Shown: one piece after another, positions 13,535 through 57,653 of the stretch | Layout: every line of letters starts with the position of its first letter | How positions within the stretch are numbered: the stretch's first letter is position 1 | DNA from: Somniosus microcephalus | Lineage: Eukaryota | Length of the DNA stretch: 64,000 bases | Assembly (NCBI GenBank): GCA_052327205.1 | Contig: CM126204.1 | Location: 323,268,001 to 323,332,000 of the forward strand | Reading direction: 5' to 3' | Made by a program: the position numbers and the translations under genes | The notes under the pieces: generated by a model | Seen by the model: the letters and a program-made list of their open reading frames with translations, nothing else | Database searches by the model: none | Told to the model about the DNA's origin: nothing

Positions 13535-15110
13535 AATGAGGAAGGCACAAGGGTCATGAGGGGAGATCGGAGAGAAACTGGAGAAAGATGTGTGTTCAGG
13601 GCTAGAGCAGGGGGGAACCTTAGAGGAAGTTTGGCCCAGTAGACTAGGGGAAGGAAGGACGTGGCAGAGGCAGCTGAACGGATGGTCTCAATCCTAGAGA
13701 CAAAGAAGTCCATGAGCTCCTCACACTTGTTATCGGAGGTGAGGGTGGCGGAGACAGGGGAGAGTGGTTTAAGAAGATGGTTAGCAGTAGAGAATAAGAG
13801 CCGGGGTTTATCTTTGTATTCCAGAATGATTCTGGAGCAGGGCCCGATAATGCTTTATGTGGTCCAGCCAGATTTGGCGGTGAATGGCTAAACCAGTTCA
13901 AGGCTGCGTCCCTTGGATTTGAGGGAGTGAAGATGAGGGCCGTATCAGGGGGAACGGCCAGGGTGAGAGAGAGTAAGGCCTAAAAATTCGGTTGCTTTGC
14001 TCCTCCTAAGAGGGCGCTAACAGGGTGTAAAGCAACGAGTGCCTGGGCGCAACGCCGCCAAAGCCTCCTGCGAAATTCAGTGGGAGGTTAGTGGCAGCGG
14101 TAACCGTTAGCGCCCTGTGGCGCTGCGCCGCCGGCGATAACGTCATCGCCGTGCACAGGGCCCCGCTAGCGCCCCGGCCGCAATCTTCGGTAGCATCCCT
14201 TGACTTACCGCCGGACGCTATGTCCGATGGGGTCAGGGGGGCCTACCTGCGGCCGGGGCGGCACTAATTCAAGGGAAGGTGCCGGGCGGCCATTTTTGTT
14301 GCTGGCCGCCTGCCAGCATCTGCCCCCTCTGCCGTCCCCGGCCTCCTGAGCAGTCCCCCCGCGGAGTGCCGGCTGCGCTCCGTGAGCCCGGCACTTCTCT
14401 TGAAAGCTGGGCTCCTTTGCCGGCACTCCGATCCCTGGTGGCCCAGCTGGGCCCCGGGTCGCGCTGCGCTAGGCCCCTCCCCTTTAATAAGGGGAGGAAG
14501 GCCTGCAGTACCGCAGCGTGACGTGCCGCTGCGGCATGTAGCACCGCGATATTCACTCACAGCGCCCCAAGAGAGAGGCGGGGCGCTTCCAGTAGCACTC
14601 CGCTTCCCTCTTGGGGCACTACCGGTGAATTTCGGCCGCGGGGATACTAATTTTTTCGGGAAAAGTAGCGCCCCAGCGAAGTTAGCGCCCCAAAGGGGGC
14701 ACGACTCAGTTTTTCCCCTTAAGTGTTTTAGTAGGGACTTGGGCATCAAAGGTGCTGGTGACGGTGTGGTTGAGCAGATTGGTAGCTGCAAAAATGTCAT
14801 GGTGAATGGAGGGCCAAAGGCTGGACAGTTAGGATTTCATAAGTGCAGTTGTAAGAGAGTTGGGAGAGAGTTTTTTCCAGGGGTGGACACAGAAGGAAGT
14901 AGGGTTGGGGGTGGATGGAAGGGGGATGTGGGTGGAGAGCGATACGAGGAAGTGGTCAGAGATGGCCTTATCTGCGATTGACACGATGGGAGTAGTGAGG
15001 CCATGAGAGATGGCAAGGTTGAGGGGGTGGCTGTGAATATGGGTTGGGGAGTTTACATGGAGGGAGAGATTAAGGGAGGATAGGAGACTAGTGAACTCAA
15101 ATTCAAAGGA
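13535..15110 (-). mobile_element. L2 LINE ORF2 fragment split by the insertion at 13977-14719
   Basis: Minus-strand MDFFVSRIETIRSAASA and pyrimidine-rich L2-like sequence that resumes after 14720. Confidence 0.7.
13977..14719. mobile_element. GC/CpG-rich Harbinger-like non-autonomous element
   Basis: taa|GGCCTAAAAATTCGG...TTTTTCCCCT|taa interrupts the L2. Repeated TAGCGCCC motifs. Confidence 0.6.
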
Positions 15111-19190: not shown

Positions 19191-22070
19191 GGGGGAAAAT
19201 TTGGTTGGTTTGCGCCTCCCATTAGCGCCTTAAGAGGGCGCTAATGGGGCACAATGCAACTAGCGCTCATGTGCGGTGATGTTTGCACCGCTCACGAAAT
19301 TGACCAGACATTTTGCGGCGGCACTAAACACTACCACCACGATCTCCTGCGCCCACAGATCGTGACGTCAGTCGAGCGTGCAATGCCCCGGTAGCGCCCC
19401 AGACCGGATATTGAGTGGCGCCCCCTGTCTTACCACCTGCCGCTAGCAACAACAGATTGAGGGGAGCGTTTTGCAGTCGGGAAGGGACTGGGGGAGCGCT
19501 ATTTAAAGGCGACCGCTTCCTGCCTTTTTTTGTCAGCGAAATTTTTGCACCATTCTGAGTGAGTGAGAGAGAGAGGGGAATCAGGGGAATTTATAATGGG
19601 GAACAAAGAAATGGCAGACCAACTAAATACATATTTTGGTTCTGTCTTCACAAAGGAGGACACAAATAACCTCCCAGAGATGCCGGGGAACATAGGGTCT
19701 GATGAAAGGGAGGAACTGAAAGAAATCAGTATTTGTAGGGAAATGGTGTTAGGGAAATTGATGGGATTGAAGGCCGATAAATCCCCAGGGCCTGATAATC
19801 TACATCCTAGGGTACTTAAGGAAGTGGCCCTAGAAATAGTAGATGCATTGCTAATCATCTTCCAACATTCGATGGAATCTGGAACAGTACCCATGGATTG
19901 GAGGGTAGCGAATGTTACCCCACTATTCAAAAAAGGTGGTGGAGAGAAAACGGGGAATTACAGACCGGTAAGCCTGACATCGGTAGTGGGGAAAATGCTA
20001 GAGTCCATTATAAAAGATGTAATAGCAGAGCACTTGGAAAATAGTGACAGGATCGGACAAAGTCAACATGGATTCACAAAAGGTAAATCGTGCTTGACTA
20101 ATCTACTGGAATTTTTTGAGGATGTAACTAGTAAAATAGATAAGGGAAAACCAGTGGATGTGGTGTATCTGGACTTTCAGAAGGCTTTCGATAAGGTCCC
20201 GCATAAGAGATTAGCGTGTAAAGTTAAGGCACATGGGATTGGGGGCAAGATATTGACTTGGATAGAGAACTGGTTGGCAGACAGAAAGCAAAGAGTTGGA
20301 ATAAACGGGTCCTTTTCCGAGTGGCAGGCAGTGACTAGTGGGGTACCGCAGGGATTGGTCCTTGGACCCCAGCTATTCACAATATATATTAATGATCTAG
20401 ACAAGGGAACTAGATGTAATATCTCCAAATTTGCAGACGACACAAAGCTGGGTTGGGCGTGTGTGCTGTGAGGAGAATGTCGAGAAACTGCAGGATGATT
20501 TGGACATGTTGGGTGATTGGGCAGAAACATGGCAGATGCAATATAACGTGGATAAATGTGAGGTTTTCCACTTGGTGGCAAAAACAGGAAGGCAGATTAT
20601 TATCTAAATGGCAATAGATTGGGAGAAGGGGAAGTGCAACGAGACCTGGGTGTTCTTGTGCACCAGTCACTGAAGGTAAGCATGCAGGTGCAGCAGGCGG
20701 TTAAGAAGGCAAATGGTATGTTGGCCTTCGTAGCGAGAGGGTTTGAGTACAGGAACAAGGATGTCTTGCTGCAGTTGTACAGGGCCTTGGTGAGACCACA
20801 TCTCGCGTATTGTGTGTAGTTTTGGTCGCCTTATCTGAGGAAGGATGTTCTTGCCATGGAAGGAGTTCAGCGAAGATTCACCAGGCTGATACCTGGGATG
20901 GCAGGAATGATGTCTGAGGAGAAATTGGGTCGATTGGGCTTGTACTCACTGGAGTTTAGAAGAATGAGAGGTGATTTCATTGAAACTTATAAAATTCTAA
21001 CAGGACTGGACAGACTAGATGCAGGAAGGATGTTCCCGATGGTCGGGGAGTCCAAAACCAGGGGACACAGTCTAAGGATAAAGGGTAGGCCATTTAGGAC
21101 AGAAATGAGGAGGAATTTCTTCACCCAGAGAGTGGTGAACCTGTGGAACTCTGTACCACAGAAGGCGGTGGAGGCCAGTTCATTAAATATATTCAAGAAG
21201 GAGTTGGATATATTTCTTAAGGCTAAAGGGATCAAGGGGTATGGGGAGAAAGCAGGGATCGGGTACTGAATTTGGATGATCAGCCATGATCGCATTGAAT
21301 GGCGGAGCAGGCTCAAGGGGCCGAATGGCCTACTCCTGCTCCTATCTTCTGTTTCTTTGAGAGATTACAGGAGATATTCAAAGCTGTGTTGAGGAGTTTT
21401 GGGTACTGAGCAGCACTTTGCAGGTTCTTTCTGATTTGATCTTCCTTGCATCGATTTAGAAGCGACTATGGGGGCTGCACTCTGAACTCTTTCCCTGGGC
21501 CTCTCCATTGTTCTTTCCAACAGATTTGATGTACAGGTCTCTCCAGGCTGAGATTCAAGGCTGCAATGAGCAGGGTGTGGATGGAAGCAAGATCGACCCT
21601 CCCCTTTAAGAACTGGCTGGCGCTAGTTTGCCTGTGTTCCATTGCTGACTGACATCACATGAGCTTCGCCAGCGCTCTGAGATAGCGCCTTGCTCCTCGG
21701 CCTTTGCGCCTTAAGAGAGGTGTGTAGCACCTGATTTAGCGCTCCAATCACCTCCAGGGGCGATACAAGCCAAGTTTGCAGTCAGAGGCAATAATTAGCA
21801 GCAGGCGCTAAACTTTGTGCCCGGCTGATAATTGCCGAATTTCTCCCCCATAGTATTGGATGGTCAAAGTATATAATCTAGGCTGACACTTAACCAGAAG
21901 AGGAAAGGAGGGAAGTACGAAAGCAGACCCTCACAACCACCATCTGCAGAAAATGAATGAGGGTGATAAAAGCCAAATTTGCAGTCGGAGGTGATAATTA
22001 GCGCCAGGCGCTGAACTTTTCGCCCGACCGATAATCGCACCCCAAACGGGGCGATACTGAATTTCTCCCC
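19191..22070. mobile_element. Harbinger-like TIR element(s) interrupting the old CR1
   Basis: Left end GGGGGAAAATTTGG, two right ends GAATTTCTCCCC at about 21848 and 22070, TAGCGCC motifs. Confidence 0.6.
19563..21357 (+). mobile_element. Young 5'-truncated CR1 LINE, RT domain with few lesions
   Basis: 302-aa ORF with [30 protein letters not shown] and FADD. Frameshifts near 20460 and 20570, stop at 20817, intact 3' UTR. Confidence 0.95.
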
Positions 22071-27616: not shown

Positions 27617-27662
27617 TAAGCATTCCATGTTGAAGGACAGCACAATCCAGGGGACTGTGAAG
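27617..27662 (+). CDS. RNF220: RNF220 internal coding exon (46 nt, phase 2/0), xKHSMLKDSTIQGTVK
   Basis: Acceptor ttatttcctgtttcttcaacag, donor AAG|gtaagt. Only one open frame, which aligns to human RNF220 SKNSLLKDAMAPGTPK (recalled) and joins in frame to the 45688 exon. Confidence 0.88.
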
Positions 27663-29080: not shown

Positions 29081-30635
29081 CAAATCAAAATCAAATCAAC
29101 TTTTATTGTCATTGTTAGTGCACAAGTGCAGTACAACGAAATGTAGGCTTGCGGCTCCCGAGAGTGTACATTTAGATTAAGACATTTAAACATTCAACAT
29201 ACATTTGGCTTGTAATACATTAACATAAACATAACCATAATAAAGTGCATTGGCAGATGTGCAGGCTTTAGAGTTTATTTGTGGAGTTCAGTAGGATGAC
29301 AGCCCTGGGAAAGAAGCTGTTCCTAAATCTGGTCGTACGGGTGCGAATGCATCTGTAGCGTCTCCCAGATGGCAGGAGGGCGAACAGACTGTGGCTGGGG
29401 TGGGTAGGGTCTTTGATGATGGACCGTGACCTCCGTAAACAGCGTTTCTGGTATATGTGCTCTATGGTCGGTAGCCGGGTGCCAGTAATGCGTTGGGCAG
29501 TTTTGACTACCCGCTGCAGGGCTTTCCGGTCATAGTAGCTACAGCTGCCATACCATACTGTGATACAGTTTGTCAGGATGCTCTCTATTGTGCAGCGGTA
29601 AAAGTTAGAGAGGATCAGGGGTGACAGGTTACATCCCTTCAGCCTCCTTAGGAAATATAGGCGCTGCTGGGCCTTCTTCACCAGAGAGGAGGTATTGAGG
29701 GACCAGGAGAGGTCTTCCGTGATGTGGACTCCGAGGAACTTAAAGCTGTCCACCCTTTCCACCACAGCCCCACTGATGTGGATGGGGGTGTGACTTCCGC
29801 CTTTAGACTTCCTGAAGTCCACAATGATTTCTTTGGTTTTCTTGATGTTAAGGGCCAGGTTGTTATCAGCGCACCACTTCACGAGATGCTGGACCTCCAC
29901 CCTGTAGGCTGACTCATCGTTGTTGGTGATCTGGCCTACTACCGTGGTATCATCCGCAAACTTGATGATGGTGTTGGAACCATGAACAGCCACACAGTCG
30001 TGGGTGAAGAGGGAGTAGAGGAGGGGGCTCAGCACACATCCTTGTGGGGCCCCCGTGTTCAGGGTCGGGGGGGGGGTGGGGAGGTGTGGTTACCTAATTT
30101 GACAGACTGGGGTCTGTTTGTTGGGAAGTCCAGGGTCCAGTTGCAGAGGGAAGTGTTCAGGCCAAGAGTTTGGAGTTTGGTGGCCAGCTTGTTGGGGACG
30201 ATAGTGTTGAATGCTGAGCTGTAGTCTATGAACAGCATTCTGATGTAGGTCTCCTTACCATCTAAGTGATTCAGTGCCGAGTGTAGAGCAGTTGTGATTG
30301 CATCCTCCGTTGATCTGTTTGCACGATAGGCAAACTGGTGTTGGTCAAGAGAGGCGGGAACACTGGCTTTGATGTGAGCCAGGACCAGTCTCTCGAAACA
30401 CTTCATTATGATGGGTGTGAGTGCGACAGGTCGATAGTCGTTCAGGCACGTCACAGCCGTTTGTTTTGGCACAGGAATAATGGTAGCGGTCTTGAAGCAT
30501 GTAGGGACTACTGCCTGGGCCAATGACAGATTGAAGATGGCGGTGAAGACATCAGCCAGCTGATCAGCACATTCCTTGAGTACCCGTCCAGGGATGCTAT
30601 CCGGTCCAGCAGCCTTTCGTGTGTTCACTCCGCGT
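29081..30635 (-). mobile_element. Rex1/Babar-clade LINE, 5'-truncated, nearly intact RT
   Basis: [58 protein letters not shown]. One frame break at the G-run near 30066-30081, then AATAAA and a (tttga)n tail. Confidence 0.92.
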
Positions 30636-36357: not shown

Positions 36358-36432
36358 TCTCTCAGCACAACTGCTGACCTGCACGCCACCCATTCTTCCA
36401 GCGCTGAAGGATGTAAAGGAGGGAGAGGACAG
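36358..36432 (+). CDS. RNF220: Candidate alternative cassette exon of RNF220 (75 nt, phase 0/0), SLSTTADLHATHSSSAEGCKGGRGQ
   Basis: Acceptor ttttcctcgcttttatcgtttctcag, donor CAG|gtgaat. Open, frame-preserving, inside a phase-0 intron and a repeat-free block. Confidence 0.5.
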
Positions 36433-38759: not shown

Positions 38760-40364
38760 GGCCCGGAATTTGCGGTGGGTAATAACAGCGAACGAACAGC
38801 ATTCACTGCTATTACCCCTTTGAAACTGACAGCAACCTCAGGATTTAGCGCATGTGCATCCTAACGCAGAAATCCTGAAGTGATGGTCAGTCATTCACTG
38901 CTCCGACACTGGCTGCAGTGTGACCCGCCTTCCTCCCTCCCCCCACATATCTGGCAATCTGTGTATTCGGGAATTCAGTGAAACTGATGAAAACTTCAGC
39001 ATTTCCTCGGTAATTTTGCTGTTAAATACCCCATTAAATGTTAGGTCTTGTTGAATTAGGTGTATCTGGGATTTTAACAGCGTATTGACTGCTAAACAAA
39101 CATTATGGGGTCGATTTTCATGGAGCCGTCAGGCGGGGTTTCAGGCGTGTGGGGGGGGGGAATCCCGAATTTGGGGGTCCCGACACCAAAACCCCGCTCC
39201 ACGCAACTTTCAGAGGCGGCGGGTACCCGCCCCGCAATGGGACCCGCCGACCCCAGGCGGGAAGGGATTAGTGCCAATTAACTGCCTGTTAACAGGCAGT
39301 TTTTAGCCTAATCCCTATTTTGAGGGGTTTCGTGTGGGTTTCCCGATGGCTCCAAACCACACCAGGTTAGAGCAGGCGGGCCGTCGGGTTGGAGGGGTCG
39401 CGATGTCGGCGCTCAAGTGAGTGATGGGTGCATGAGTGCAAAGGTAAGTGTGTTTGGTGTGTCTAAAGTGTGTAAAGAACTTTTACTTACCTGTACTTAC
39501 CTTAACAGCCTTTCTTCCTGCAGGCGTCAGGAGCCCATCACTTGGCCGGCACTTAAAGCTGAATGGCTGCGATCTGTGAAAAGTGACAGCCTTCAGCTTT
39601 GAGTGCTGCTGAGAGTTCTAACTGAGTCTATGCAGAAGGACTCAGGTTGGAACTCAGACTGTCAGTGTTTCACAGCTTGAAACAGCTGTGAAACACTGAT
39701 ATTTCATCTGTCAAGAACTCTTGACAGATGAAATTGCAGTCTGTGACGTCACCTGTTGCCGGGTGGCCCTTAATTGGCCTGCTGAGCCCGCTGGGCGGGC
39801 TCAACAAGGTCAATCAAGGGAAAATCACGCGGATTGGCCGGATGTCGATGTAGGCGGGTCAAAAACCCGAAAGTTGTAGTCCCGCCTTCTTCCCGACAGC
39901 TTCGGGAAAATCGACCCCTATGACTCTGCAAAACAAATTTAAATTTTGTTGGGTGTCAAATTTTTCCATTTTAATAAAGAAATTATAATTTTTAAGAAAC
40001 TTTAAAAAAATTATCTATTTTAAAAGTGTGTTTATCTTTATTTCAGGTTTACTTTTTCCCCATGTGAGAGCCCCAATCTTTGCTTTGCTCTCTATAACAT
40101 TTTTAAAAAGTTAGAATCAAAGGAGCTTACTCACTTCCTGGTTCACTGTCGGTGAGAATTCTGCATTGTGATTGGTTGCTTAGACAGCTTGTTGACCTCA
40201 CAACAGCTCGCGCTATGGAATTCCCACTAAACGACACTGATCTCAACTGCATGTTGAAAAAGCCAAACTTCTCGCCACAGAGATCACGAGATCTTTGTGA
40301 GAAGCTTTCTTCGGGGCCGGCGGGCGAACGCCTTTGCTTCGCCACTGACTGCAAATTACGGGCA
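38760..40364. mobile_element. Harbinger-like non-autonomous element (outer)
   Basis: TIR GGCCCGGAATTTGC / GCAAATTACGGGCA, TSD aat/aat. Confidence 0.7.
39107..39918. mobile_element. Harbinger-like MITE nested in 38760-40364
   Basis: Perfect 13-bp TIR GGGGTCGATTTTC / GAAAATCGACCCC, TSD tat/tat. Confidence 0.82.
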
Positions 40365-49400: not shown

Positions 49401-50251
49401 AAGCTATTTGCATTGAATCAAAATAGAAACTGAGGCTTGAATGTAAACGAATGTAGCCAAAACCTAAATGTCATTTAAGGAGTAAGCACTTTGCACTTTT
49501 AACGTATAGAACAGACTATCAAGTAACAAAGTGAATGTGGATTATGTTGAAGTATTTAAAAAAAAAAAGAAATGGACACATTCCTGAATAGAGCATCAGT
49601 CGCAGGATATGAGGAAGAGATAATCTATCTGACCAGATTCTGAACATCAAGTTAAAATGGTAAACTAGACGAGTTGAATGATCTTTTCTTTTTTCTACCA
49701 TCTTGTGTTCTTCTCTCTCGCTGTTCATAACTTAATCGGAAATTCCAGGAACATGTTGAAGCTTGTTACTATTGTCTTATTTTGTGAAATATACCTTATT
49801 TTCTGAATTTTGTGTAACTGGGAGATTTCTGTCTCTCACGTCATCATATTGAGGCTGCCATTACTTCTCTGAAGGTGCTGCTGCTGCTGTGTTTTTGCCA
49901 TGTGACTGGATGTAGTCAGAATTTCTAACTCAATGGCATTTCATGAGTGGCAACTCTATTCCACAACAATCACACATACAAACGTGCATACCATTGTCTG
50001 TTAACTGCATAATTCTGAATCATTTAGGTCACAGATGACAGTAGTGTGATTGTTCATGAATGTGGGTGTCAGCGTCAAATGTGGATGAGTTGGAAGATCT
50101 GACAGCCAGGCATTTTCTTATTGCAGCATTATGGTGGACGTACTCTTGATAATAAGGCCACTAAACAGGATTTACTGGAACGTAGTACACTATAAATTAC
50201 TAGGACCTTGGATACAGGTAATTGCTAAATTACAGTGAAAAGTACAATAGG

Positions 50252-50745
50252 ATGTCAAGGTCTTGGAGAGGGTGCAGACGACACTTACCAGAATGGTACC
50301 AGGGATGAGGGGCTTCAGTTATGTGGAGAGACTAGAAAATCTGGATTTGTTCTCCTTAGAGCAGAGAAGGTTAAGGGGAGATTTACTAGAGGTGTTAAAA
50401 ATTATGAGGGGCTTTAATAGAGTAAATAAGGGGAAACTGTTTCCACTGGCAGGAGGGTTCGTAACCAGAGGGCACAGATTTAAGATAGTTAGCAAAAGAA
50501 CCAGAGGGGAGATGAGTAGAATTATTTTTTTACACAGCAAGTTGTTATGATCTGGAATGCAATGATTAAAAGGGTAGTGAAAGCAGATTCAATAATAACT
50601 TTCAAAAGGGAATTGGATAAATACTTGAAATTTGCAGAGCTATGGGGAAAGGGCAGGGGTGTGGGACTAATTGGACAGCTCTTTCAAAGAGCCGGCACAG
50701 GCGCGATGGACTGAATGGCCTCCTTCTGTACTGTATGATTCTATA
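50252..50745 (+). mobile_element. CR1 LINE 3' end
   Basis: ERVQ..TRMVPGMRGFSYVERLENLDLFSLEQRRLRGDL, CR1 tail. Confidence 0.88.
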
Positions 50746-51494: not shown

Positions 51495-52921
51495 TGGAAG
51501 AACTAGCCGTGCCTCTAGCCAAACTGTTCCAGTACAGCTACAACACTGGCATCGACCTGACAAATTGAAAAATTGCCTAGGTACGTCCTATCCACAAAAA
51601 GCAGGACAAATCCAATCCAACCAATTACCGCCCCATTAGTTTACTCTCAATCATCAGCAAAGTGATGGAAGATATCGTCGACAGTGCTATCAAGTGGCAC
51701 TTAGTCACCAATAACCTGCTTACCGATGCTTAGTTTGGGTTCCACCAGGACCACTCGGCTTCAGATCTCATTGCAGCCTTGGTCCAAACATGGACAAAAG
51801 AGCTGAATTCCAGAGATGAGGTGAGAGTGACTGCCCTTGACATCGAGCATTTGACTGAGTCTGGCATCAAGGAGCCTTAGTAAAATTGAAATCAATGGGA
51901 ATCAGGGGGAAAACTCTCCACTGGCTGGAGTCCTACCTAGCACAAAGGAAGATGGTTGTGGTTGTTGGAGGTCAATCATCACAGGCCCAGGACATCGCTG
52001 CAGGAGTTCCTCAGGGCAGTGTCCTAGGCACCACCATCTTCATTAATGACCATCCCTCCATCATAAGGTCAGAAGTGGGGCTGTTTGCTGATGATTGCAG
52101 TGTTCAGTTCCATTCACAACTCCTCAGATAATGAAGCAGTCTGTGCCTGCATGCAGCAAGATCTGGACAACATTCAAGTAATATTCGTGCTACACAAGTG
52201 CCAGGCAATGACCATCTCCAACAAGAGAACGTCTAACCCATGACATTCAATGGCATTACCATCATCAAATCCCCCACCATCAACATCCTGGGGTCACCAT
52301 TGAGCAGAAATTTAACTGGACCAGCCACATAAATATTGTGGCTACAAGAGCATGTCAGAGGCTGGGTATTCTGCGGCAAGTGACTCACCTCCTGACTCCT
52401 CAAAGCCTTTCCACCATCTACAAGGCACAAGTCAGGAGTGTGATGGAATACTCTCTACTTGCCTGGATGAGCTCGACATCATCCAGGACAAAGCAGCCCG
52501 CTTGATTGGCACCCCATCTACCACCTTAAACATTCACTCCCTCCACCACCGGCGCACCGTGTACCATCCACAGGATGCACTGCAGCAACTCACCTAGGCT
52601 TCTTTGACAGCACCTCCCAAACCCACGACCTCTACTACCTAGAAGGACAAGGGCAGCAGGCGCATGGGAACACCATTACCTGCAAGTTCCCCTCCAAGTC
52701 ACACACCACCCTGACTTGGAAATATATTGCTGTTCCTTCTTCATCGCTGGGTCAAAATCCTGGAACTCCCTCCCTAACAGCACTGTGGGAGTGCCTTCAC
52801 CACACGGACTGCAGTGGTTCAAGAAGGCAGCTCACCACCAACTTCTCAAGGGCAATTAGGGATGGGCAATAAATGCTGGCTTTGCCAGCAATGCCCACAT
52901 CCTGTAAATGAATTTTAAAAA
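51495..52921 (+). mobile_element. CR1-group LINE, 5'-truncated, decayed RT
   Basis: NYRPISLLSIISKVME, AGVPQGSVLG and FADD motifs, complete 3' tail. Confidence 0.88.
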
Positions 52922-53489
52922 CTGTCGCAGGTCATGATACATAGCTGTACCTTCCATTCAACATTGTCATCACAACCTTGCGACCTTTGCTGGAGTGCCT
53001 GCCCACAAAATGATTAAGAAGTTATTTAAAAAATAATTCGTATATGTTGCTATCTAAAGTGGTTTAGAAAACTTTTACGACCCACTGGAGCAATGTGTAA
53101 CATCATCTAAACTTCCTGAATTGAATCTTGTAGAGTAATATTAGTATATATGTAAAAAAAATAGAAAACGAGTTCATCTTTCTTTCCATTAAAAAAAAAG
53201 TCTCGTCACTTTAATAGCTGACATATTAGCTGTCCTCTCCCCGTTCCAGTGAGCGGTATCACTTCGCTAAGGAATTTTCAGTCCAAGGCACTCCTCTAAA
53301 AAGTGAATGCAATTTTTTCCATTATTTGTAAAACTGGTTAAAAATGGACTTTGTGTTTTGAATGCATAGAAATATTTTTAAATCAATTTTGTGTAATTAT
53401 TTAAGGACTGAATGGTCTGTTAGAAAAAGCAGGGACCGGTGCCGAAGAGGCTTTGGTTCAGACTGCAGGGTGGAATTCAGGCAGTGCGC

Positions 53490-53700
53490 TTCAATGCTAG
53501 TCTGCTGCCACCTATCGGCCAATCGGCGCATGTGCGCCGTGTACTTTGCACTTTCACCTTTCGCTGGCGGTCACGTGACCCGACTGTTTCCAAGGCCTGG
53601 CGTAAGCTGAACACGATGCAGCCTCTTGGTTTGAATCTAATGACATCCTCTCTGTTTCTGTGACTTGCCCGGATCGGATTATAAAGGTGTAAAGTTCCCA
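53490..53700 (+). promoter_or_regulatory. Putative internal promoter of RNF220
   Basis: CpG-containing patch with GGCCAATCGG (CCAAT 53519-53523), NRF1-like GCGCATGTGCGC (53526-53537), palindromic E-box GGTCACGTGACC (53569-53580) and TATAAAG (53680-53686). Confidence 0.55.
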
Positions 53701-53712
53701 GCTGCTACATTC

Positions 53713-53805
53713 ATGCCAAGTAATATTGACAGATTCTCCCATTTTAATCCTGCAATGGACCCAGCAGTAATGGAGGATACAGAACAGACCAATGGCAAGG
53801 AGGAA
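53713..53805 (+). CDS. RNF220: Candidate alternative first coding exon of a short RNF220 isoform, MPSNIDRFSHFNPAMDPAVMEDTEQTNGKEE
   Basis: In-frame ATGs at 53713, 53755 (gcaATGg, strong Kozak) and 53770. Donor GAA|gtaggt is phase 0, and a 153-nt intron leads to the phase-0 exon at 53959. Confidence 0.55.
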
Positions 53806-53958
53806 GTAGGTTTTGTTTACATCCTGTGCAGTTAGGCAATGAGAGAATCCACTGCAATCCAGCTGCTTCAGGCAGATTTTTCACAGATATTCAAGCAGAA
53901 TCTGACAGTTTGAGTGCCTCTTGTTTATTTTTCACCTTTCTTTTCTGTTTTTCTTTAG

Positions 53959-54001
53959 ACATTTTTGCGAGTAAGGTCCAACAGGCAAGCAAGGCTGAAT
54001 G
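53959..54001 (+). CDS. RNF220: RNF220 internal coding exon (43 nt, phase 0/1), TFLRVRSNRQARLN(A)
   Basis: Acceptor ttttctgtttttctttag, donor ATG|gtaagg. Matches human TFLRVRANRQTRLNA, the residues directly after HSDRYQ. Confidence 0.95.
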
Positions 54002-54724
54002 GTAAGGTTATGTTGACTGATAACGCAACTTTTTAATATTGATTTGGGAAAAAGCTGCTTTTTTTGGAAGGACGGGTTGGAATTACAGTGACATATTTTG
54101 AAAAATATATCCAAACGTATGCTTTGAAGTTGTAATCTATCATTGTTTTCCGCATTCCTGAATTTTCCATTGCAAGTGTTTAATAAGCAAACTTAATGTT
54201 AAGTTGAGTAACTTTTTGCCTATTTATTTTGAATGGGAGGAAGTGACGCACTAATAGTTGTTGCACTAGTACCTATACTTTCAATATCAACACTTTTATA
54301 GCTATGATGATTTCGTCCAATCTTTATAGTGCTCTTATATTTATATTGTAGTTTTGTTCTTTTAAAAACGTATATTCAATAAATCATAAAAGTTCTTTGT
54401 AAGCAACTCCGCAGAGTGCTCTAGCCATTGCCATCTACACTGTCAACAAAGGCTATCCCAAAACAGAATAAAGACACCACCATCAAACTCACAGTGTAAA
54501 CTTTAAAAAATGCCACAACATCATGACCATTATGGAATGATTACAATGGAATCGCTTCTCAGAGTTCAGATATAACAGTTATAAACTAGCTGGGCTTTGC
54601 TCTTCTGGTATATGACATCATCTGAGGTGTCGGTTAGATCACTGTTTTATATTCACTCTCAGCTACAGTCTCTTTTGTAGCTTTTCTAATGTAATTTCTA
54701 GCTGTAACTTTTTGTAGTGGGTAC

Positions 54725-57653
54725 TAGGGCAGTGAATGAATCGCACTTAACTTCTGCAATTAATGGGTAGGTTTTTTGGAGATTCATTGTTCAAACAAGT
54801 GAATGAGGCCAGCACACTGCACCCACCATTTCACCCTGGACAGAATGACCATTCCCAGGACCTTAAAGCTTGAGTCTGTGCCTGCGCCCCCCTGTCATAA
54901 ACCCAAGTCGGTGCCTGCCCCCACCCTGCCATGGTCCGTGCCCACCCTCGTCAAGACCCGAGTCCGTACCCGCCCCCACCCCGGCACGGCCCGAGTCCGT
55001 GCCCGCCCCCACCCCCGTCACGGCCAGGTGCCTGCCTGACCCCACCCCTGCCAAGACCCGAGTCCGTGCCCACCCTCGTCAAGACCCGAGTCCGTGCCCA
55101 CCCTCGTCAAGACCCGAGTCCGTACCCACCCTCGCCCTGTCATGGCCCGAGTCCGTGCCCGCCCCCACCCTCACCCTGTCAATGGCCCGAGTCCGTGCCC
55201 GCCCCCACCCCCGTCACGGCCAAGTGCCTGCCTGACCCCACCCCTGTCAAGACCCGAGTCCGTGCCCATCCCTGTCAAGACCCAAGTCTGTGCCCACCCC
55301 TGTCACGGCCCGAATCCATTCCCGCCCCCACCCTGTCACGGCTGAGTCCCTGCCTGACCCCGCCCCCACCCCCGTCAAGACTCGAGTCCGTGCCCACCCC
55401 CACCCCCGTCAAAGCCCGAGTCCGTGCCCACCCCTCTCACGGCCCGAATCCATTCCCGCCCCCACCTTGTCACGGCTGAGTCCCTGCCTGACCCCGCCCC
55501 CACCCCCGTCAAGGCCCGAATCCGTGCCCACCCCGTCAAGGCCCATGTCTATGCCCGCCCCCACCCCAGTCATGGCCCGCGTCCGTGCCCACCCTCACCC
55601 CCGTCATGGCCCGTGTCCGTGCCCGCCTCCACCCCTGTCATGGCCCGAGTCTGTCCCCACCCCCGTCACGGCCGGAGTCCGTGCCCGCCCCCACCCCAGT
55701 CACGGCCCATGTCCGTGCCCACCCTCACCCCCGTCACGGCCCGTGCCTGCCTCCACCCCTGTCATGGCCCGAGTCTGTGCCCGCCCCCAGCCCCGTCATG
55801 GCCCGAGCCCGTGCCCGCCCCCAGCCCCGTCATGGCCCGAGCCCGTGCCCGCCCCCAGCCCCGTCATGGCCCGAGTCTGTGCCCGCCCCCAGCCCCGTCA
55901 CGGCCCGAGTCCGTGCCCGCCCCCAGCCCCGTCACGGCCCGAGTCCGTGCCCGCCCCCAGCCCCGTCACGGCCCGAGTCCATGCCCGCCCCCAGCCCCGT
56001 CACGGCCCGAGTCCGTGCCCGCCCCCAGCCCCGTCACGGCCCGAGTCCGTGCCCGCCCCCAGCCCCGTCACGGCCCGAGTCCGTGCCCGCCCCCCGTCAC
56101 GGCCCGAGTCCGTGCCCGCCCCCAGCCCCGTCACGGCCCGAGTCCGTGCCCGCCCCCAGCCCCGTCACGGCCCGAGTCCGTGCCAGCCCCGTCACGGCCC
56201 GAGTCCGTGCCCGCCCCGTCGCGGCCCGAGTCCGTGCCCGCCCCGTCGCGGCCCGAGTCCGTGCCCGCCCCGTCGCGGCCCGAGTCCGTGCCCGCCCCGT
56301 CGCGGCCCGAGTCCGTGCCCGCCCCGTCGCGGCCCGAGTCCGTGCCCGCCCCGTCGCGGCCCGAGTCCGTGCCCGCCCCGTCGCGGCCCGAGTCCGTGCC
56401 CGCCCCGTCGCGGCCCGAGTCCGTGCCCGCCCCGTCGCGGCCCGAGTCCGTGCCCGCCCCGTCGCGGCCCGAGTCCGTGCCCGCCCCGTCGCGGCCCGAG
56501 TCCGTGCCCGCCCCGTCGCGGCCCGAGTCCGTGCCCGCCCCGTCGCGGCCCGAGTCCGTGCCCGCCCCGTCGCGGCCCGAGTCCGTGCCCGCCCCGTCGC
56601 GGCCCGAGTCCGTGCCCGCCCCGTCGCGGCCCGAGTCCGTGCCCGCCCCGTCGCGGCCCGAGTCCGTGCCCGCCCCGTCGCGGCCCGAGTCCGTGCCCGC
56701 CACGGCCCGAGCCCGTTCACGGCCCGAGCCCGTGCCCCCCCCGTCACGGCCCGAGCCCGCGCCCGCCCCGTCACGGCCCGAGCCCGCGCCCGCCCCGTCA
56801 CGGCCCGAGCCCGCCCCGTCACGGCCCGTGCCCGCCCCGTCACGGCCCGAGCCCGTGCCCGCCCCCGCCCCGTCACGGCCCGAGCCCGCCCCCGCCCCGT
56901 CACGGCCCGAGCCCGCCCCCGCCCCGTCACGGCCCGTGCCCGCCCCGTCACGGCCCGTGCCCGCCCCCGTCACGGCCCGTGCCCGCCCCCGTCACGGCCC
57001 GCGCCCGCCCCCGTCACGGCCCGCGCCCGCCCCGTCACGGCCCGCGCCCGCCCCGTCACGGCCCGAGTCCGCGCCCGCCCCGTCACGGCCCGAGTCCGCG
57101 CCCGCCCCGTCACGGCCCGAGTCCGCGCCCGCCCCGTCACGGCCCGAGTCCGCGCCCGCCCCGTCACGGCCCGAGTCCGCGCCCGCCCCGTCACGGCCCG
57201 AGTCCGCGCCCGCCCCGTCACGGCCCGAGTCCGCGCCCGCCCCGTCACGGCCCGAGCCCGCGCCCGCCCCCAGCCCCGTCACGGCCCGAGCCCGCGCCCG
57301 CCCCCAGCCCCGTCACGGCCCGAGCCCTCGCCCGCCCCCAGCCCCGTCACGGCCCGAGCCCGTGCCCGCCCCCAGCCCCGTCACGGCTCGAGTTCGTATC
57401 CCCCAACTACAAAATTTCCTGAACAAGTTCCATTTATTTTTCTGTTGCTTTTCCAGAAATAGAAAAATAGGAAAAAAGGATTTATAGTCTGGGTTGGTTT
57501 TTGGATGATAACAGCATCAATAATAATATAAACTTGAATAAGATGGTTGTAATTGTATCAATTAAATTTGCGATTAAAACCAAGATTAACAGATAAAAAA
57601 ATTTAATTGTGGGATTAATTGCGATTAATAATTTTTACTGGCTTTCAGCCCTA
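54725..57653. mobile_element. hAT-type non-autonomous element enclosing the minisatellite
   Basis: Termini TAGGGCAG...CAGCCCTA, subterminal gcgattaa motifs, 8-bp TSD gtgggtac/ttgggtac (7/8). Confidence 0.72.
54870..57395. repeat. GC/CpG-rich minisatellite with 27- and 34-bp units
   Basis: 18 perfect 27-mers (gtcgcggcccgagtccgtgcccgcccc) from 56218 to about 56700, 34-mers at about 55770-56170, a second 27-mer variant at about 57050-57245, degenerate edges. Confidence 0.97.

What the first reader, a model, noticed from the sequence alone, without database searches (positions are those of the whole stretch)
53490..54001. Internal promoter and alternative first exon predicting an N-truncated RNF220
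Seen: a CCAAT box, NRF1-like palindrome, GTCACGTGAC (USF/MiT-TFE-type E-box) and TATAAAG within 200 bp. These are followed by a 31-codon open frame with three in-frame ATGs, ending in a phase-0 donor (GAA|gtaggt) 153 nt before the phase-0 TFLRVR exon. Inference: a second transcript encoding M..EE-TFLRVR..RING that lacks the N-terminal half. I recall an N-deleted Rnf220 isoform in mouse (unverified); if orthologous, this two-promoter design would date to the jawed-vertebrate ancestor.
Basis: partly seen in the sequence, partly recalled or inferred. Interest (0 to 1): 0.75.

Follow-up and report, generated by a model that had tools for sequence, protein, structure and literature searches.

The report
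Shark copy of short RNF220 start
Inside an intron of a shark's RNF220 ubiquitin-ligase gene lies an extra exon that RNA reads show spliced onto the next exon; it likely serves as the first exon of a short protein form already described in human and mouse, so that form likely dates back to the ancestor of jawed vertebrates.

Summary
The exon is real and the isoform is known. All coordinates check out. Same-species RNA joins 53805 to 53959 (6 read pairs, probably copies of one molecule; none in a second run), as does a spliced contig from a relative. The 31-residue start is already in RefSeq for other sharks and rays (e.g. XP_041063991.1, 29/31 identical). Its last 12 codons match the short-isoform starts of bony vertebrates at the same junction (best of 245 intron frames, z 6). 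This fits exon 5a of deltaN-RNF220 (PMC12296455). The promoter reading needs correcting. The TATA box lies inside transcribed sequence, and the CCAAT box is lost in both relatives checked. No start site was mapped. Two points I did not find in print: the long N-terminal half is present from coral to shark, against the paper's suggestion that the short form is original; and the mammalian second start (M38) is Asn in cartilaginous fishes and hagfish. The scan had no earlier RNF220 note.

The parts
27618..27662 (+). Upstream coding exon of the long rnf220a isoform (residues 254-268 of the 568-aa shark protein)
   Evidence: tblastn 100% identical to P0018
45688..45783 (+). Last long-isoform-specific exon, ending DRYQ with a phase-0 donor; shows that the new start lies inside the gene
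   Evidence: tblastn 100% identical to P0018 269-300; splice sites
53426..53700 (.). Small CpG-rich patch (GC 53-56%, CpG observed/expected 0.8-0.95), candidate internal promoter
   Evidence: about ten other patches of the window reach the same CpG count, so this is not specific alone
53503..53518 (-).
   Evidence: 2 mismatches to the consensus printed in PMC7381335 (about 1.2 such hits expected per 64 kb); read-through residues unchanged in a ray-type contig; one change (53514 A>G) at a degenerate position of a recalled consensus in organism H. Binding untested
53519..53523 (+). CCAAT box, probably not functional
   Evidence: 53521 A>G in organism H; incompatible with the ray-type read-through; common by chance
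53526..53535 (.). NRF1-like site, one mismatch to a recalled core
   Evidence: 53530 A>C in organism H; the fewest-change codons for the ray-type read-through give a perfect match to that core (inference)
53570..53579 (.). Palindromic E-box GTCACGTGAC
   Evidence: unique in window; core compatible with the ray-type read-through, 3' flank changed there
53581..53805 (+). Alternative 5' exon (counterpart of mammalian exon 5a). The 5' end is a minimum from a relative's contig; same-species reads reach back to 53687
   Evidence: tables 2, 5, 6, 8
53616..53663 (+). Out-of-frame upstream ORF of 15 codons (second ATG at 53640) in the putative 5' UTR
   Evidence: translation untested
53680..53686 (+). 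TATAAAG, inside the transcribed leader and probably not the core promoter
   Evidence: relative's contig covers it from 53581; same-species fragment starts at 53687; the Mustelus model P0009 has its ATG at this position (inference)
53713..53805 (+). 31-codon frame. ATG 53713 has a weak context; ATGs 53755 and 53770 have G at -3 and +4
   Evidence: the same N-terminus in 10 of the 14 members of P0003's cluster
53806..53958 (+). 153-nt GT..AG intron, conserved in a ray-type contig; holds a possible second (GC) donor after 53871
   Evidence: junction; conservation; P0013 maps to 53839-53871
53959..54001 (+). Shared 43-nt exon TFLRVRSNRQARLN; the next exon was not found in the window

Best explanation
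This is an RNA-supported alternative exon of shark rnf220a, spliced in frame to the shared TFLRVR exon, that likely acts as a first exon driven by a likely TATA-less, CpG-rich internal promoter and is likely the orthologue of mammalian exon 5a, so it would yield the short deltaN-RNF220 E3 ligase. Mechanism, step by step. (1) Shown: the exon is transcribed on the + strand and joined 53805>53959. (2) Inferred: transcription starts at dispersed sites at or above about 53580, just downstream of a CTCF-like/NRF1-like/E-box module of the kind typical of broadly active promoters (own knowledge). (3) Inferred: ribosomes pass a 15-codon upstream ORF and the weak ATG at 53713, and start mostly at 53755 (17 extra residues, about 311 aa; mammals add 18 and make 308 aa). 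(4) By homology: the product keeps the basic nuclear-signal region, the RNF220 domain and the RING finger but lacks about 300 N-terminal residues. (5) By analogy with mouse and human, untested in shark: it is the broadly expressed form.
For: Junction 53805>53959 GT..AG in a same-species-labelled stranded RNA run (6 pairs, 99+% alike) and in a 1640-nt contig of a relative that continues into the next exon. The N-terminus is 29/31 identical to P0003 (white and basking shark RefSeq models) and 30/31 to catshark; 10 of 14 cluster members carry it. Of 101 fetched proteins with a short, non-DRYQ start joined to TF[LM]RVR, 74 end in the same G-K/R-x-E type motif. Against 54 distinct bony-vertebrate starts, the frame ending at 53805 scores 15.8, the next of 245 open GT-ending frames 3.9 (z 6.0); 0 of 2000 shuffles reach it. 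The mammalian start is 18 aa, which gives 308 aa and puts the second Met at 38, as in PMC12296455. That paper maps a broadly active H3K4me3-marked start to exon 5a. No read or contig showed a splice into the exon from upstream (tiny sample). Conservation in organism H rises at about 53500: 22 substitutions in 53379-53499, against at most 38 in 53531-54200.
Against: The six read pairs have one start position and look like copies of one molecule among 16.7 million records; the second same-species run gave none. That low count does not show a dominant isoform. No cap-based or chromatin data exist here, and contigs cannot show a start. No transcription-factor binding was tested; the CTCF-like and NRF1-like hits are within chance on their own. 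Organism H's status at the E-box and TATA is unseen, because 33 rows of the difference table were cut. Ray-type motif states are back-inferred from a translated read-through. Which ATG is used is untested; non-coding neighbours are as conserved as codons 1-14 (intron start 9/9 read-through residues), so peptide conservation does not prove those codons are translated. The human isoform 4 record itself was not among the 15 of 181 cluster members listed.
Confidence: 0.88

Rival explanations
1. One reading: a CCAAT/TATA promoter starting transcription about 30 nt below TATAAAG (near 53710), with translation from the second or third ATG.
For: TATAAAG is present, cannot be the one unlisted change (C>T) in organism A and is compatible with the ray-type read-through. 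Two start zones could coexist.
Against: The same-species fragment begins at 53687, above the predicted start; the relative's contig begins 100 nt above the TATA. The Mustelus model places an ATG on it. CCAAT is lost in both relatives checked.
Confidence: 0.1
2. The exon is an internal cassette, or a later exon of a transcript starting further upstream, not a first exon.
For: No start site was mapped. The legend in PMC7288745 puts a zebrafish rnf220a frameshift that truncates the protein to 37 aa in the third exon, which fits exon 5a plus two exons but says nothing about sharks.
Against: No joint or loose end on the 5' side. An in-frame stop at 53641-53643 closes the frame upstream. Orthologous proteins start in this exon, and the human exon carries a promoter mark (PMC12296455).
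Confidence: 0.06
3. Independent (convergent) recruitment of a first exon in the same intron in sharks and in bony vertebrates.
For: The peptide is short and compositionally simple; tetrapod starts are diverged and GC-rich; no shark-to-bony-vertebrate DNA alignment could be made; no chimaera short form was seen.
Against: Same junction and phase, a shared C-terminal motif, and a column-for-column match of the shark's last 12 codons to gar, bowfin and zebrafish starts.
Confidence: 0.05

Closest known systems
[quoted passage not shown] 2025, PMC12296455
   Same: Internal start exon just before the TFLRVR exon, phase 0, short leader peptide ending in EE, about 300-325 aa, includes the 26-aa extension (P0003 versus P0018: 294 versus 268 shared residues).
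   Different: The shark exon has three in-frame ATGs (31, 17 or 12 residues) against one annotated 18-residue start. The M38 codon that makes mammalian form 4b is Asn in cartilaginous fishes. Tissue dominance and function are untested in shark.
RefSeq and GenBank models of elasmobranch RNF220a short isoforms (XP_041063991.1, XP_078417122.1, XP_048457984.1, XP_051867781.1, XP_059840122.1, GCB62874.1)
   Same: Same 31-residue N-terminus and junction, 325 aa.
   Different: Predicted models with no promoter analysis seen; they take the first ATG; stingray and devil-ray models have lost the third ATG.
Zebrafish Rnf220a NP_001070038.1 (307 aa)
   Same: 12-residue start that aligns to the shark's third-ATG peptide at the same junction.
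   Different: Lacks the two upstream in-frame ATGs; has Met at the 4b position.

Membership tests
deltaN-RNF220 (exon 5a isoform) | Host gene is RNF220, with long-isoform exons upstream | tested here: met
   Three exons match the shark 568-aa RNF220a
deltaN-RNF220 (exon 5a isoform) | Extra exon spliced in frame to the TFLRVR exon | tested here: met
   Junction 53805>53959 in X23 (probably one molecule) and X1
deltaN-RNF220 (exon 5a isoform) | Leader peptide homologous to the bony-vertebrate short-isoform start | tested here: met
   Best of 245 frames, z 6.0; 0 of 2000 shuffles
deltaN-RNF220 (exon 5a isoform) | Transcription starts in this exon (own promoter, H3K4me3 or CAGE signal) | tested here: inconclusive
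   No upstream splice seen and coverage ends at 53581 or 53687, but the sample is tiny and contigs cannot show a start
deltaN-RNF220 (exon 5a isoform) | Transcript continues to the RNF220 domain and RING finger | tested here: inconclusive
   Downstream exons were not found in the window; X1 continues into the next exon; relatives' models are full length
deltaN-RNF220 (exon 5a isoform) | Predominant isoform outside the brain | not testable with these tools
   Only 12 reads laid in X23; the long-isoform junction was outside the laid stretch
deltaN-RNF220 form 4b | Second start codon at M38 (RIGK-M-KR) | tested here: not met
   Of 225 fetched proteins with this motif, 180 have M, 10 L and 35 N; the N rows are cartilaginous fishes (two unnamed Logan rows among them) plus hagfish; X1's next exon reads AAC there. 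This species' own exon is outside the window
TATA-box core promoter | Start about 30 nt below the TATA; TATA not transcribed | tested here: not met
   Transcribed sequence begins above the predicted start in X23 and X1; a minor TATA-driven start is not excluded

The most novel reading that the evidence does not exclude
The long RNF220 is the ancestral protein: its N-terminal half is present in coral, insects, brachiopod, annelid, acorn worm, amphioxus, hagfish and shark. The short form is a vertebrate add-on made by an internal housekeeping-type promoter that was in place by the jawed-vertebrate ancestor and took over broad expression. The 4b start codon came later, in bony vertebrates. Sharks keep the intermediate state, with two promoters and no 4b codon, and vary the N-terminus instead through three ATGs and a second splice donor. 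This reverses the order suggested in PMC12296455.
Probability: 0.6. Interest if true: 0.42.

Novelty: already known. Interest (0 to 1): 0.27.

Why it matters
RNF220 patterns the spinal cord and is mutated in a familial leukodystrophy, and the usual exon-2 knockout mouse may spare the short form (PMC12296455). A shark orthologue shows that the two-start design has been kept across jawed vertebrates, so both forms probably matter. The conserved 80-bp module gives a compact target for finding what drives the short form. The comparison also corrects one evolutionary suggestion in that paper. It is a single-gene detail, not a new kind of system.

Tried and rejected
No whole genome is held for this window, so exons beyond it and genome-wide copy number were not checked. 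No indexed RNA holder was listed for the stretch; raw-read runs with the same species label were laid instead. X24 gave only 3 poorly matching reads on the polypyrimidine tract. The single lay covered 53001-54200 only, so the long-to-short junction ratio was not measured. Origin before jawed vertebrates was tested and is unsupported. Lamprey 'Rnf220-like' proteins are annotated as short only, but their starts score no better than their own shuffles (339 to 1168 of 2000 reach the score). A tree of 23 C-terminal halves did not resolve their placement, and four paralogue rows were badly trimmed. No hagfish or lamprey short isoform appeared among the 120 listed of 426 hits. Coupling of the 26-aa extension to the short form (81 of 101 against 4 of 43 long rows) was rejected as biased, because the search's 569-aa cap excludes long forms that carry it. 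Paper searches for RNF220 with shark (8 papers), cartilaginous (2), amphioxus plus evolution (2), alternative promoter (6) and NRF1 plus promoter (5) showed, from listings only, nothing on the isoform's evolution beyond PMC12296455 and its preprint. That paper's supplement could not be read and its figures are not held; Fig. 1d and S Tables 1-2 may include alignments that bear on conservation. Subscription journals are mostly not covered. The scan's own index had no RNF220 note. No structure or complex prediction was run, as it would not bear on the question.

Full report
Setting. The window is an intron-rich part of a shark rnf220a gene on the + strand. Three exons match the 568-aa shark protein P0018: 27618-27662, 45688-45783 (ending DRYQ) and 53959-54001 (TFLRVR...). 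Residues 1-253 and those after 314 gave no match in the window. The finding therefore lies in the intron between the last long-specific exon and the first shared exon.

Observation. Their weight differs. The E-box palindrome is unique in 64 kb (0.03 expected). CCAAT and TATAAA are common here (38% and 9% of 200-nt windows). The NRF1-like site is one mismatch from a core that I recalled, and recurs twice elsewhere. The patch is CpG-rich, though about ten other patches are as rich. It is not a repeat.

RNA. I laid 4 of the 24 listed runs on 53001-54200. In X23, a stranded RNA run with the same species label as the best DNA holder, 6 read pairs join 53805 to 53959 (GT..AG), with mate orientation that fits a + strand RNA. 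They share one start and one end (53687) and are probably copies of one molecule, among 16.7 million records read (about 24% of the run). X24 showed nothing on the exon. In X1, from a related species, one 1640-nt contig covers 53581-53805 and 53959-54001 and runs on into the next exon. No joint or loose end enters the exon from upstream. The junction is thus shown by two independent sources; the level is low or unknown, and the start site is not mapped.

Proteins. A 40-codon query from the window found P0003, annotated as RNF220a isoforms of white and basking shark, 325 aa, 29/31 identical over the leader. Ten of the 14 members of its cluster carry this leader, covering sharks, sawfish, stingrays and devil rays. 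ATG1 and ATG2 are kept in 10 of 10, ATG3 in 6 of 10. Bony vertebrates have short leaders at the same junction: 12 residues in zebrafish, gar and bowfin, 8-13 in frogs and lizards, 18 in placental mammals, 22 in marsupials. A profile of 54 distinct bony-vertebrate leaders, chosen by junction and not by likeness, ranks the frame ending at 53805 first of 245 open GT-ending frames in the intron (15.8 against 3.9 for the next; z 6.0); 0 of 2000 shuffles reach that score.

Literature. PMC12296455 (I read parts 1 and 2 of 3: abstract, results, discussion and the first references; figures and supplement not seen) describes a 308-aa deltaN-RNF220 starting in exon 5a. It is dominant outside brain, has the strongest H3K4me3 peak in most human tissues, is needed for myoblast differentiation, and has a second start at M38. 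The 18-residue mammalian leader gives exactly 308 aa and M38, which ties the fetched proteins to that isoform. Of the preprint, PMC7288745, PMC7381335 and the fly Tey preprint I saw passages only; a term search in PMC6349408 found no passage.

Promoter. Two DNA-level comparisons were possible: organism H's contigs (table cut after 53530 for changes seen only there) and a ray-type read-through ORF, P0002, that runs without gaps along 53485-53832. CCAAT is changed in both. The NRF1-like site changes in ways that a recalled NRF1 motif allows, and the fewest-change reading for the ray is a perfect core (inference). The E-box core is compatible with the ray, its 3' flank is not. A CTCF-like site at 53503-53518 (two mismatches to the consensus printed in PMC7381335) is unchanged in the ray read-through; alone it is within chance. 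The TATAAAG lies inside X1's contig, the X23 fragment starts above where a TATA would place the start, and the Mustelus model has its ATG there. The likeliest design is a TATA-less, CpG-rich promoter centred on 53503-53579. This is inferred; no binding was tested.

Translation. ATG1 has a weak context; ATG2 and ATG3 are strong. ATG2 is both strong and kept in all ten proteins, so it is my best guess for the main start (about 311 aa). ATG3 lines up with the ray-finned fish start. Codons 1-14 are conserved (12 of 14 in the ray-type read-through), but so is the adjacent intron (9 of 9), so their translation is not shown.

Evolution. The paper suggests that the short form is the original one because zebrafish and fly have only short forms. 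The data here point the other way. Sharks, chimaera, sturgeon, coelacanth and frog have the long form. Its N-terminal half aligns with hagfish, amphioxus, acorn worm, brachiopod, annelid, coral, scorpion, horseshoe crab and two insect proteins; all 10 tested score 167-644 against shuffle maxima of 53-75. These ten were picked from the 150 listed representatives as likely long forms; many other listed representatives show no match to the first 200 residues, and whether invertebrates also make a short form at this junction was not tested. The M38 position is Asn in 35 rows (cartilaginous fishes and hagfish) against Met in 180 and Leu in 10, so form 4b looks like a bony-vertebrate addition. A pre-gnathostome origin of the short start was tested on lamprey proteins and is unsupported. 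I found none of these points in the paper searches listed under Tried and rejected.

Verdict. The isoform is published in mammals and annotated in other sharks, so it is already known; the evolutionary corrections add modest interest.

Noticed in passing
window 53839-53871: A stingray model (P0013, XP_059840123.1) starts in this intron segment and uses a second donor. Here that donor is GC (CAG|GCAGAT) and the segment follows an in-frame stop at 53833, so its use would turn the 31-codon frame into an upstream ORF. No read supported it (0 of 6).
   Followed up: partly
window 53616-53663: A 15-codon out-of-frame upstream ORF in the putative leader; it appears intact in organism A's contig and is compatible with the ray-type read-through.
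   Followed up: partly
window 54941-57397: A very GC-rich (74-85%) tandem array of about 27-nt units, 2.5 kb long with high CpG content, 1 kb downstream of the shared exon. It gives long spurious ORFs and many CTCF-like matches.
   Followed up: no
P0007 (XP_059829990.1): A stingray 'RNF220-like' protein of 323 aa with the short-isoform leader lies on a different, longer contig than the main gene; possibly a retrocopy of the short mRNA.
   Followed up: no
P0169 cluster (lampreys): Lampreys have an 'Rnf220-like' gene annotated only as a 310-348-aa short protein with an acidic leader; the leader's likeness to the gnathostome one is not above shuffles.
   Followed up: partly
P0236 (unnamed representative): An arthropod-like RNF220 with a 28-residue unrelated start joined at the position equivalent to the TFLRVR junction; either an invertebrate short form or a mis-predicted start.
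   Followed up: no
window 13976-14700, 19226-19500, 39076-39300: Other CpG-rich patches in the long introns; not examined.
   Followed up: no
window 36361-36432: A devil-ray model (P0011) includes a segment matching here at 71%, a possible cassette exon between the two upstream exons.
   Followed up: no
window 29271-30089 (-), 50251-50547, 51859-52869: Frames that look like LINE reverse-transcriptase fragments (family names recalled, not searched).
   Followed up: no
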